Source of the DNA: Escherichia coli
Lineage (GTDB): Bacteria; Pseudomonadota; Gammaproteobacteria; Enterobacterales; Enterobacteriaceae
Assembly: GCF_003334815.1 (NCBI RefSeq)
Contig: NZ_QOWO01000001.1
Direction: 5' to 3' (one strand)
Length of the DNA stretch: 64,000 nt
Both the position numbers and the translations under genes were made by a program. Numbering within the stretch: position 1 is the first letter of the stretch; every line of letters begins with the position of its first letter. Below, one piece after another: positions 8,771 through 9,570 of this stretch. The notes beneath the pieces were generated by a model. The model saw nothing but the letters and a program-made list of their open reading frames with translations. It was not told where the DNA came from and did no database searches.

Positions 8771-9106
8771 ATGCCCGCTAATGCTCGCTCTCACGCTGTA
8801 CTGACCACTGAATCAAAGGTCACGATACGCGGACAAACAACTATCCCCGCGCCAGTGCGTGAGGCCTTAAAACTGAAGCCAGGCCAGGACAGCATTCATT
8901 ACGAAATTCTGCCTGGTGGGCAAGTATTTATGTGCCGACTGGGAGATGAACAGGAGGATCATACTATGAATGCATTTTTGCGTTTTCTGGATGCAGATAT
9001 CCAGAACAACCCGCAAAAAACTCGTCCATTCAACATTCAACAAGGAAAGAAACTTGTCGCTGGCATGGACGTCAACATTGATGATGAGATTGGCGACGAC
9101 GAATAA
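8771..9106 (+). CDS. prlF: Antitoxin PrlF (SohA), AbrB-fold
   Basis: 111-aa ORF with acidic C-terminal tail; stop overlaps the yhaV start (TAATG). Confidence 0.9.
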   Translation: MPANARSHAVLTTESKVTIRGQTTIPAPVREALKLKPGQDSIHYEILPGGQVFMCRLGDEQEDHTMNAFLRFLDADIQNNPQKTRPFNIQQGKKLVAGMDVNIDDEIGDDE

Positions 9107-9570
9107 TGGATTTTCCACAAAGGGTTAATGGTTGGGCGCTATATGCTCATCCCTGTTTTCAGGAAACCTACGACGCTTTAGTTGCCGAAGTCGAGACATT
9201 AAAGGGAAAAGATCCTGAAAATTATCAGAGAAAAGCCGCCACAAAGTTATTGGCGGTAGTCCATAAAGTGATTGAGGAGCATATCACGGTCAATCCATCA
9301 TCACCGGCATTCCGTCATGGCAAGTCGTTAGGCTCTGGGAAAAATAAAGACTGGTCACGGGTAAAATTTGGTGCTGGTCGTTATCGTCTCTTCTTTCGTT
9401 ATAGTGAAAAAGAGAAAGTCATCATTCTGGGATGGATGAACGATGAAAACACTCTGCGCACCTACGGTAAAAAAACAGATGCCTATACCGTATTCAGCAA
9501 AATGTTAAAAAGAGGACATCCTCCTGCCGACTGGGAAACCCTCACCCGAGAAACAGAAGAAACCCATTGA
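9106..9570 (+). CDS. yhaV: Toxin YhaV (ribonuclease)
   Basis: 154-aa ORF; 1-nt overlap with prlF, typical toxin-antitoxin arrangement. Confidence 0.9.
   Translation: MDFPQRVNGWALYAHPCFQETYDALVAEVETLKGKDPENYQRKAATKLLAVVHKVIEEHITVNPSSPAFRHGKSLGSGKNKDWSRVKFGAGRYRLFFRYSEKEKVIILGWMNDENTLRTYGKKTDAYTVFSKMLKRGHPPADWETLTRETEETH

What the first reader, a model, noticed from the sequence alone, without database searches (positions are those of the whole stretch)
8771..9570. prlF-yhaV type II toxin-antitoxin pair next to the gar and aga loci
A small AbrB-fold antitoxin with an acidic tail (PrlF) overlaps by 1 nt (TAATG) with the YhaV ribonuclease toxin. This is a known module, but it is the only defence/addiction-type element in the window.
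Basis: partly seen in the sequence, partly recalled or inferred. Interest (0 to 1): 0.25.

Follow-up and report, generated by a model that had tools for sequence, protein, structure and literature searches.

The report
Known prlF-yhaV toxin-antitoxin pair
This is the ordinary, already well-studied prlF-yhaV toxin-antitoxin gene pair of Escherichia coli, base-for-base identical to the laboratory strain K-12 copy, so nothing in it is new.

Summary
Two ORFs lie at 8771..9106 (111 aa) and 9106..9570 (154 aa) on the + strand and share one base (TAATG). Window 8600-9660 is 1061/1061 identical to E. coli K-12 MG1655, and both proteins are 100% identical to PrlF (b3129) and YhaV (b3130). Pfam and NCBIfam name them, and 5119 of 5426 complete E. 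coli genomes carry the locus between garD and agaR. A confident YhaV model (pLDDT 96) matches only RelE/ParE-type toxins among solved structures, and all ten family-invariant residues are present. A 16-bp palindrome (8699-8714) overlaps the -35 hexamer and is invariant upstream of five divergent prlF genes, so it is the likely autoregulatory operator. PADLOC found no other toxin-antitoxin or defence system in the window.

Side findings:
- prlF holds two copies of TTCAACA (9029-9042). This is the known site of the prlF1 and laboratory-evolution 7-bp duplication, and it is expanded in rare natural E. coli and in Shigella sonnei sequences.
- About 187 genomes have a clean empty site.
- Relatives of the pair sit in prophage-like contexts.

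The parts
8623..9629 (+). Full extent of the prlF-yhaV cassette, defined against strains that lack it
   Evidence: In E. coli Eco_23-2678 and the type strain ATCC 11775, the garD stop codon is followed by an unrelated 66-bp spacer and then agaR. Homology with the window stops right after the garD TGA (8622) and resumes at TCCCCGACC (9630).
8645..8670 (+). garD intrinsic terminator hairpin (10-bp stem, 6-nt loop, U-rich tail), just upstream of the prlF promoter
   Evidence: Terminator scan. Fold gives -12.4 kcal/mol, z = -2.8. The same hairpin is present in the syntenic locus L013.
8699..8714 (.). Perfect palindrome TAATGCA-TT-TGCATTA overlapping the -35 hexamer; putative PrlF/PrlF-YhaV operator
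   Evidence: Found by the repeat search. It occurs once in 64 kb against 0.01 expected by chance. It is the only long invariant block in an alignment of five divergent prlF upstream regions. The literature reports that the complex binds a palindrome in the prlF promoter (PMC7781912). Binding to this exact sequence was not tested here.
8706..8734 (+). Sigma-70-like promoter: TTTGCA, 17-nt spacer, TATAAT (10 of 12 consensus positions)
   Evidence: Promoter scan. The -10 hexamer is conserved in all five aligned loci.
8757..8767 (+). Ribosome-binding region of prlF (AAGGA...GTGA), 4-14 nt before the ATG
   Evidence: Read from the sequence. The GTGA block is invariant in the five-locus alignment.
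8771..9106 (+). prlF (sohA), the antitoxin and autorepressor, 111 aa
   Evidence: ORF list. PF15937 at 7e-42. NCBIfam NF007429 equivalog at 170 bits, above the 125-bit cut-off. 100% identical to K-12 b3129.
9029..9042 (+). Two tandem copies of the heptanucleotide TTCAACA inside prlF (codons F87-Q91); a known slippage or duplication hot spot
   Evidence: Unique in the window. A duplication at +272 from the start codon is reported in PMC7686311, and the same change is the prlF1 allele in PMC12107188. Natural expansions appear.
9068..9103 (+). Acidic C-terminal tail of PrlF (DVNIDDEIGDDE)
   Evidence: Translation. The tail is conserved in all 11 aligned PrlF homologs. Its role in binding the toxin is inferred by analogy with other type II antitoxins.
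9104..9108 (+). TAATG stop/start overlap, which implies translational coupling of yhaV to prlF
   Evidence: Read from the sequence. A 1-nt or 4-nt overlap is also found in relatives L010-L014.
9106..9570 (+). yhaV, a RelE-superfamily ribonuclease toxin, 154 aa
   Evidence: ORF list. PF11663 at 9e-54. 100% identical to K-12 b3130. AlphaFold2 model with pLDDT 96.4, whose top Foldseek PDB hits are all RelE/ParE-type toxins. Family-invariant residues P64, R85, K87, R94, F96, W110, N112, R118, D125 and Y127 are all present.
9582..9618 (.). Imperfect hairpin (8-bp GC-rich stem ATGCCCGC/GCGGGCAT with an internal stem) between yhaV and the agaR stop; at best a weak two-way terminator
   Evidence: Fold gives -21 to -25 kcal/mol, but z is only -1.3 and no U-run follows. 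The terminator scan did not report it.

Best explanation
This is the chromosomal prlF-yhaV type II toxin-antitoxin operon of Escherichia coli. A sigma-70 promoter (8706-8734) drives a two-gene transcript. PrlF is translated first, and yhaV translation is coupled to it through the TAATG overlap. YhaV is a RelE-fold endoribonuclease. [quoted passage not shown] PrlF binds and neutralises YhaV; the reported complex is a PrlF2-YhaV4 hexamer. Through its AbrB-like N-terminal domain, that complex binds the palindrome TAATGCATTTGCATTA over the -35 hexamer and represses the operon.

What was shown here: the gene identities, the RelE fold of YhaV, retention of the conserved residues, the conserved palindrome and promoter, and the population distribution.

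What is taken from literature on the identical K-12 sequence: toxicity and rescue, ribosome-dependent cleavage, complex stoichiometry, and DNA binding.

What is inferred: that this particular palindrome is the operator, that the acidic tail contacts the toxin, and that R85/K87/R94/R118/Y127 form the active site.
For: The DNA is identical to K-12 over 1061/1061 bases and both proteins are 100% identical. Pfam PF15937 and PF11663 match, and the NCBIfam PrlF equivalog scores above its cut-off. RefSeq gives the same annotation at the same garD/agaR position, and 5119 of 5426 genomes carry the locus. The YhaV AlphaFold2 model has pLDDT 96.4. Its Foldseek PDB hits are PfiT, HigB2, E. coli RelE (target-normalised TM 0.71-0.79), M. 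tuberculosis RelE1/2 and YoeB. Ten invariant residues across 55 diverse homologs are all present. hhalign pairs R85/K87/R94 with RelE K52/K54/R61. The palindrome is unique in the window and invariant in five divergent loci. For mechanism: Culviner 2021 (PMC8546651) found a subcodon bias, a 5'-end bias and cleavage before G. Review PMC7781912 reports the PrlF2-YhaV4 complex binding a promoter palindrome and YhaV binding the ribosome. PMC11980606 lists PF_YhaV as a ribosome-dependent mRNase.
Against: The original characterisation (Schmidt 2007, as tabulated in PMC8546651) reported ribosome-independent RNase activity, so ribosome dependence is not unanimous. No solved YhaV or PrlF structure exists by sequence search, so the active-site assignment is unverified. 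The profile match to RelE is not significant on its own (E = 0.036, probability 1.4%). The physiological trigger and the protease that degrades PrlF are listed as unknown (PMC4963847). The biological role of the chromosomal copy is unsettled. The exact operator sequence from Schmidt 2007 could not be read because the paper is not held.
Confidence: 0.93

Rival explanations
1. The locus matters to the cell mainly through PrlF acting as a regulator of Lon-dependent proteostasis and envelope or porin expression. YhaV toxicity is secondary, and the toxin-antitoxin behaviour is incidental.
For: prlF was first found as a suppressor of protein-export jamming that acts through raised Lon activity (PMC7781912; PMC4963847). 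The 7-bp TTCAACA duplication in prlF is repeatedly selected in the laboratory. It lowers ompF and confers carbenicillin, aztreonam and D-valine resistance (PMC7686311), and it compensates for proteotoxic stress from gene amplification through Lon (PMC12107188). Natural isolates with frameshifted prlF and intact yhaV exist.
Against: The link to Lon is described as mechanistically unknown in all of those papers. Maeda et al. attribute the ompF and sodB changes to YhaV RNase activity. The gene pair, the overlap and the operator are conserved together in divergent and mobile contexts, which is typical of a self-contained toxin-antitoxin cassette. This reading does not exclude the main one.
Confidence: 0.15
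2. The pair is an anti-phage abortive-infection module: phage infection frees YhaV, which shuts down translation in the infected cell.
For: Relatives of the pair lie in prophage-like contexts. L014 sits directly after a holin-lysozyme-DUF2570 lysis cassette, and L010 sits next to an ANT antirepressor gene. One distant homolog is in a Vibrio phage record. The RelE/ParE superfamily includes defence toxins (PMC11980606).
Against: Neither protein matches any PADLOC model. None of the papers read reports phage defence by PrlF-YhaV. In E. coli the pair sits at a fixed chromosomal site between metabolic operons, not in a defence island. The cassette is absent from true plasmids and from E. coli phages.
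Confidence: 0.08
3. YhaV is a general, ribosome-independent RNase that degrades free RNA, not an A-site mRNA interferase.
For: Schmidt 2007 is tabulated as finding ribosome-independent activity (PMC8546651, Table 1). YhaV carries about 60 extra N-terminal residues (two long helices) that RelE lacks, so its ribosome docking could differ. The review says it binds the 50S subunit.
Against: [quoted passage not shown] Choi 2017 reports translation-dependent cleavage (cited).
Confidence: 0.1
4. The pair in this window is a decayed, non-functional remnant.
For: Decayed alleles do exist elsewhere: frameshifted prlF, yhaV alleles that have lost the stop codon or are frameshifted, and fusions.
Against: Both ORFs in the window are intact and identical to the functional K-12 genes, and the promoter, operator and ribosome-binding site are also identical.
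Confidence: 0.01

Closest known systems
PrlF-YhaV (SohA-YhaV) type II toxin-antitoxin system of E. coli K-12 (b3129/b3130; Pfam PF15937 and PF11663)
   Same: Everything. The DNA from the garD stop to the agaR stop, both proteins, the promoter, the palindrome and the 1-nt overlap are identical.
   Different: Nothing within the cassette. The surrounding window differs from K-12 only by an intact agaW-agaE-agaF-agaA segment and about 0.05% substitutions.
RelBE (E. coli RelE, PDB 4FXE/4FXH/4V7J), the archetypal ribosome-dependent mRNA interferase
   Same: The YhaV model superposes on the RelE fold with target-normalised TM 0.71-0.79. A basic-x-basic motif on one strand, an Arg on the next strand and a C-terminal Arg and Tyr are conserved. 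Cleavage before G with a codon-position bias is shared. The antitoxin gene comes first and overlaps the toxin gene.
   Different: YhaV is about 60 residues longer, with two long N-terminal helices. Sequence similarity is below significance. The antitoxin is an AbrB/MazE-type protein, not a ribbon-helix-helix RelB. The reported stoichiometry is PrlF2-YhaV4.
MazE/AbrB/SpoVT swapped-hairpin antitoxins and transition-state regulators
   Same: PrlF residues 15-39 carry the AbrB-type motif. Pfam MazE_antitoxin gives E = 0.0023, TIGR01439 gives E = 2.5e-6, and the only PDB profile hits are AbrB-family regulators. The protein also has an acidic, probably disordered C-terminal tail.
   Different: It is paired with a RelE-fold toxin, not a MazF-fold toxin. 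All of the scores fall below family thresholds. The fold could not be confirmed with the monomer model (pLDDT 43).

Membership tests
PrlF-YhaV type II toxin-antitoxin system | The antitoxin matches the PrlF family model | tested here: met
   PF15937 at 7.2e-42 covering the full model. NCBIfam NF007429 equivalog at 170 bits, above the 125-bit cut-off.
PrlF-YhaV type II toxin-antitoxin system | The toxin matches the YhaV family model | tested here: met
   PF11663 at 8.9e-54 over model positions 1-137 of 138. No NCBIfam HMM matched YhaV, although RefSeq names the identical protein YhaV.
PrlF-YhaV type II toxin-antitoxin system | Identity or near-identity to the experimentally characterised K-12 proteins | tested here: met
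   111/111 and 154/154 residues identical. 1061/1061 bases identical, flanks included.
PrlF-YhaV type II toxin-antitoxin system | Two-gene operon with the antitoxin first and overlapping stop and start codons | tested here: met
   TAATG at 9104-9108. The same arrangement occurs in relatives L010-L014.
PrlF-YhaV type II toxin-antitoxin system | Autorepression through a palindromic operator in the prlF promoter | tested here: inconclusive
   A unique perfect palindrome overlaps the -35 hexamer and is invariant in five divergent loci. Binding itself cannot be tested here, and the published operator sequence could not be read.
PrlF-YhaV type II toxin-antitoxin system | The toxin alone inhibits growth and the antitoxin rescues it | not testable with these tools
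   Reported for the identical K-12 alleles (Schmidt 2007; Culviner 2021, PMC8546651, used rescuable YhaV toxicity).
RelE/ParE (BECR-fold) toxin superfamily | RelE-like alpha/beta fold | tested here: met
   AlphaFold2 model with pLDDT 96.4 and pTM 0.91. The top 46 Foldseek PDB hits are RelE, HigB, YoeB, ParE, PfiT or closely related toxin domains, with a best E of 1.5e-4 and probability 1.00.
RelE/ParE (BECR-fold) toxin superfamily | A set of basic residues plus a Tyr equivalent to RelE K52/K54/R61/R81/Y87 | tested here: inconclusive
   R85, K87, R94, R118 and Y127 are invariant in 55 homologs. hhalign aligns R85/K87/R94 with K52/K54/R61, but the match is not significant. No residue-level structural superposition was available. 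The list of RelE catalytic residues is from my own knowledge, except Tyr87.
RelE/ParE (BECR-fold) toxin superfamily | Ribosome-dependent mRNA cleavage | not testable with these tools
   The literature is mostly in favour, with one earlier report to the contrary (Table 1).
AbrB/MazE/SpoVT swapped-hairpin DNA-binding domain | N-terminal domain matches the family model or fold | tested here: inconclusive
   Pfam MazE_antitoxin E = 0.0023 on residues 16-39. TIGR01439 scores 27.1 bits, below its 28.3 cut-off. The PDB profile search returns only AbrB regulators, at E = 0.5-0.7. The AlphaFold2 monomer has pLDDT 43 and is unusable.
Catalogued anti-phage defence systems (PADLOC-DB v2) | Either protein matches a defence-system model | tested here: not met
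   No families matched either protein at E <= 0.1.

The most novel reading that the evidence does not exclude
The TTCAACA doublet in prlF (9029-9042) may act in nature as a contingency (phase-variable) switch. Gain or loss of 7-bp units would toggle PrlF between three states. One is the autorepressing wild-type form. The other two are frameshifted forms that lack the acidic tail, and these derepress the operon, raise Lon activity and lower OmpF, which changes beta-lactam susceptibility. The single +7-bp event is well known from the laboratory as prlF1 and as a recurrent experimental-evolution mutation. The natural arrays of 3 to about 32 copies, in all three reading frames, seen in E. coli and especially in Shigella sonnei sequences, were not described in any paper I could find.
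Probability: 0.2. Interest if true: 0.45.

Novelty: already known. Interest (0 to 1): 0.08.

Why it matters
It matters little as a discovery. The locus is a textbook E. coli K-12 toxin-antitoxin pair, and this window carries the reference allele. The side observations could support a small follow-up on how a chromosomal toxin-antitoxin pair is tuned or lost in natural populations. These are the natural copy-number variation of the prlF heptanucleotide repeat, the clean empty-site allele that changes the AgaR C-terminus, and the prophage-borne relatives. None of them is a property of this window's allele.

Tried and rejected
- Sequence searches of the PDB with YhaV, PrlF and their family profiles found no solved relative. 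The hits to ThreeFoil, Zuotin and an ion channel are chance matches. A review labels PDB 2KHE as 'YhaV', but that entry is Thermus thermophilus RelE (row 18).
- The profile comparison of the YhaV family with K-12 RelE was not significant, so the relationship rests on the predicted fold.
- The PrlF AlphaFold2 monomer was unusable (pLDDT 43), so no fold search was run on it.
- Schmidt 2007 (PMC2699681) is not held, so the published operator sequence could not be compared with the palindrome.
- A loose literature query for a prlF VNTR or MLVA locus returned only unrelated papers. A targeted one found the unit only inside an unrelated primer.
- The four 'plasmid' hits are three mislabelled chromosomes and one 354-kb record that carries a chromosomal segment. 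I rejected them as evidence of mobility.
- The hairpin after yhaV is not a convincing terminator.
- PADLOC hits from DeaD, FtsH, RlmE, AgaR, YhbW and GlmM are generic helicase, AAA+, methyltransferase, HTH and similar domain matches in housekeeping genes. I rejected them as defence systems.
- Loci L002-L004 never reached the script machine. Collinearity was therefore checked against K-12 loci instead.

Full report
**Observation.** An ATG-initiated ORF runs from 8771 to 9106 on the + strand (111 aa), and a second runs from 9106 to 9570 (154 aa). The TAA stop of the first (9104-9106) shares its last base with the ATG of the second (9106-9108), which gives the TAATG 1-nt overlap. The first protein ends in DVNIDDEIGDDE, with 7 acidic residues in the last 12. 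Upstream, garD ends at 8622. Downstream, agaR lies on the minus strand at 9625..10434.

**Identity.**
- Pfam assigns the first protein to PrlF_antitoxin (PF15937, 7.2e-42, full model) and the second to Toxin_YhaV (PF11663, 8.9e-54).
- The NCBIfam PrlF equivalog model scores 170 bits against a cut-off of 125. No NCBIfam model matched YhaV.
- Megablast of 8600-9700 against 5,426 complete E. coli genomes found the stretch at >=80% coverage in 5,119 of them. It is always annotated garD | prlF | yhaV | agaR.
- Against K-12 MG1655, both proteins are 100% identical to b3129 and b3130.
- Window 8600-9660 is identical at all 1,061 bases.
- The genes here are therefore the very alleles on which the published experiments were done.

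**Window context.** The whole window is collinear with K-12 coordinates of about 3,268,232-3,329,917 at about 99.95% identity. The exception is 2,296 extra bases at window 12845-15141, where this strain keeps agaW, agaE, agaF and agaA intact and K-12 has a deletion.

**The claim of 'only defence or addiction element'.**
- The K-12 annotation of the interval lists no other toxin-antitoxin or defence gene.
- I scanned about 60 window proteins against PADLOC. The only matches were shared-domain hits from housekeeping proteins: DeaD to helicase components, FtsH to AAA+ components, RlmE to a methyltransferase, AgaR through its HTH, YhbW, and a marginal GlmM hit.
- Rfam found RNase P RNA, SraG, the S15, rimP and greA leaders, naRNA4 and two tRNAs, but no type I antitoxin RNA.
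- PrlF and YhaV themselves match no PADLOC model.
- The claim stands at this sensitivity.

**The toxin.**
- No solved structure is related by sequence to YhaV, with either the single sequence or a family profile.
- An exhaustive search found 980 cluster representatives at E <= 0.001.
- An alignment of 55 full-length relatives (33-67% identity to the query) has ten invariant positions: P64, R85, K87, R94, F96, W110, N112, R118, D125 and Y127.
- An AlphaFold2 model built on that alignment is very confident (pLDDT 96.4, pTM 0.91). It shows two short N-terminal strands, two long helices, three strands (84-88, 93-100, 105-111) and C-terminal helices.
- Foldseek against the PDB returns RelE/ParE-type toxins almost exclusively: PfiT (E = 1.5e-4), HigB2, E. 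coli RelE (4fxh and 4fxe, target-normalised TM 0.71-0.79), M. tuberculosis RelE1/RelE2, YoeB, HP0892/HP0894, HigB and ParE.
- A profile comparison with genuine K-12 RelE (fetched) aligns S84-R85-V86-K87 with Y51-K52-I53-K54, and Y93-R94-L95 with Y60-R61-L62. The score is not significant on its own.
- From my own knowledge, RelE K52, K54, R61, R81 and Y87 form its active site (Tyr87 is also mentioned). The invariant YhaV residues R85, K87, R94, R118 and Y127 fit that pattern. This assignment is an inference.

**Published mechanism for the identical protein.**
[quoted passage not shown] This supports ribosome dependence (PMC8546651).
- A 2025 survey lists PF_YhaV as a ribosome-dependent mRNase with antitoxin-toxin gene order (PMC11980606).
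- A review summarises the PrlF2-YhaV4 hexamer, its cooperative binding to a palindrome in the prlF promoter, and YhaV binding to the ribosome (PMC7781912).
- The original 2007 paper is tabulated as finding ribosome-independent activity, so one discrepancy remains.
- The protease that removes PrlF and the natural trigger are listed as unknown (PMC4963847).

**The antitoxin.**
- Residues 15-39 carry an AbrB/MazE-type motif. Pfam MazE_antitoxin gives E = 0.0023. TIGR01439 scores 27.1 bits, just under its 28.3 cut-off.
- A profile of 11 PrlF homologs reaches only three PDB sequences, all AbrB-family regulators, at E = 0.5-0.7 over the same residues.
- The AlphaFold2 monomer was poor (pLDDT 43). 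That is expected for an obligate interdigitated dimer with a disordered tail.
- The AbrB-fold statement is therefore consistent with my data, but it rests mainly on the literature.

**Regulatory anatomy.**
- The garD terminator hairpin lies at 8645-8670.
- A promoter-like site follows: TTTGCA at 8706, a 17-nt spacer, and TATAAT ending at 8734, matching 10 of 12 consensus positions.
- A perfect 7+7 inverted repeat, TAATGCA-TT-TGCATTA, lies at 8699-8714 and overlaps the -35 hexamer. It occurs once in the window, against 0.01 expected by chance.
- I fetched four divergent prlF-yhaV loci with 57-77% PrlF identity: L013, L010, L012 and L014.
- In the alignment of their upstream regions, the only long invariant block is TAATGCA-(T/A)T-TGCATTA, extended to 11+11 in L014. 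The -10 hexamer and the ribosome-binding GTGA are also conserved.
- This phylogenetic footprint makes the palindrome the probable operator. Binding was not tested.

**Population and evolution.**
- About 187 complete genomes, including the type strain ATCC 11775, carry a clean empty site. There, the garD stop codon is followed by 66 unrelated bases containing a strong two-way terminator hairpin (z = -3.5), and then by agaR.
- Homology with the window breaks right after the garD TGA and resumes at 9630, inside the last codons of agaR. As a result, AgaR ends in VGDHASSL (274 aa) in empty strains and in VGE (269 aa) here.
- A decayed second copy of garD'-agaR, inside a genomic island in about 429 genomes, also lacks the pair and also encodes the 274-aa AgaR. 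This hints that the pair was inserted.
- On the other hand, a relative from another Enterobacteriaceae lineage (L013) already has the pair right after garD. The direction of the change is therefore unresolved.
- In E. coli the cassette is chromosomal. The plasmid-collection hits are mislabelled chromosomes or a chromosomal segment, and only one distant homolog appears in a phage record.
- More distant relatives do sit in prophage-like settings.

**An unplanned finding: the TTCAACA repeat in prlF.**
- PrlF database variants come in lengths that step by 7 residues. Their sequences show repeats of FNIQHST, which correspond to the 7-bp unit TTCAACA. The window has two copies of that unit, at 9029-9042.
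- In-frame gains add FNIQHST units. Other copy numbers switch to one of two alternative tails...KERNLSLAWTSTLMMRLATTNNGFSTKG (running past the yhaV start) or ...RKETCRWHGRQH. Both alternative tails lack the acidic end.
- The +1-copy event is known. It is the same mutation as the classical prlF1 allele and is a recurrent laboratory-evolution mutation. It raises Lon activity, lowers ompF and confers carbenicillin, aztreonam and D-valine resistance (PMC7686311; PMC12107188).
- Among complete E. coli genomes, about 11 have 3 copies and single genomes have 4, 5, 6, 7 or 9 copies. Essentially all the others that hold prlF have 2 copies.
- In two of these strains that I inspected, prlF is annotated as frameshifted while yhaV is intact.
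- Longer arrays come mostly from Shigella sonnei records.
- I found no paper describing this natural variation, but my search was limited.

**Verdict.** The element is already known in full and this window carries the reference allele. Interest is low.

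Noticed in passing
window 9029-9042 (inside prlF): There are two tandem copies of TTCAACA. 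This is the site of the classical prlF1 allele and of the recurrent laboratory-evolution 7-bp duplication. Natural E. coli and Shigella sonnei sequences carry 3 to about 32 copies, in all three reading frames, and the frameshifted forms lose PrlF's acidic tail. About 16 of 5,156 complete E. coli genomes are expanded. The repeat is specific to Escherichia/Shigella; other genera read FD-MSRG at this position.
   Followed up: partly
window 9568-9707 (yhaV stop codon and the frame after it): Some E. coli yhaV alleles have lost the TGA stop, or are frameshifted near the 3' end, and read on for 46 codons through the 9567..9707 frame. This gives 200-aa products that overlap the 3' end of agaR on the other strand (P0002, P0006, P0013, P0025). 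Two database entries (P0007, P0030) are PrlF-YhaV fusion or deletion products. Some of these may be sequencing errors.
   Followed up: partly
window 8623-9629; locus L004 5931-5996: There is a presence/absence polymorphism. About 187 complete E. coli genomes (for example the type strain ATCC 11775) have a 66-bp spacer with a strong two-way terminator in place of the 1,007-bp cassette. The right-hand junction falls inside agaR, so AgaR ends in VGDHASSL (274 aa) in empty strains and in VGE (269 aa) in this window. Whether this was an insertion or a deletion is unresolved.
   Followed up: partly
locus L008 (E. coli FAHZZU6724, NZ_CP194903.1 2885100-2895311): About 429 complete E. coli genomes carry a second, decayed copy of garD'-agaR-kbaZ', about 86% identical at the junction. 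It lies in a genomic island next to fucP, rbsK, malX and an enterotoxin gene, has no prlF-yhaV, and encodes the 274-aa form of AgaR.
   Followed up: partly
loci L014 (3001-3815) and L010/L011 (3001-3797): Divergent prlF-yhaV pairs sit in prophage-like contexts. One lies directly after a holin-lysozyme-DUF2570 lysis cassette and before a ParB_N gene (L014). In Salmonella enterica, another lies next to an ANT antirepressor gene and a YfjT-family gene. This suggests the cassette moves with phages in other Enterobacteriaceae.
   Followed up: no
window 12845-15141: This window has 2,296 bases that K-12 MG1655 lacks. They restore intact agaW, agaE, agaF and agaA (annotated nagA in RefSeq), which are pseudogenes or absent in K-12. 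The window therefore comes from a non-K-12 strain with a complete N-acetylgalactosamine cluster.
   Followed up: partly
window 1615-2007: There are 3.5 tandem copies of a 113-bp unit (96% matches), each with a terminator-like hairpin. The array starts inside the 3' end of rnpB (RNase P RNA, 1985-2361, minus strand) and extends downstream of it towards yhaC. The same repeats are present in K-12.
   Followed up: no
literature (PMC7781912, legend to Fig. 2E): The review labels PDB 2KHE as a 'YhaV monomer'. The PDB description of 2KHE is RelE from Thermus thermophilus HB8. Sequence and profile searches find no solved YhaV or PrlF structure.
   Followed up: yes
window 45310-45481, 47338-47408, 62894-63015: Ordinary annotated RNA elements of this K-12 region were recovered by Rfam: SraG, naRNA4 and the greA leader, as well as the S15 and rimP leaders and two tRNAs. 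None is unusual.
   Followed up: no
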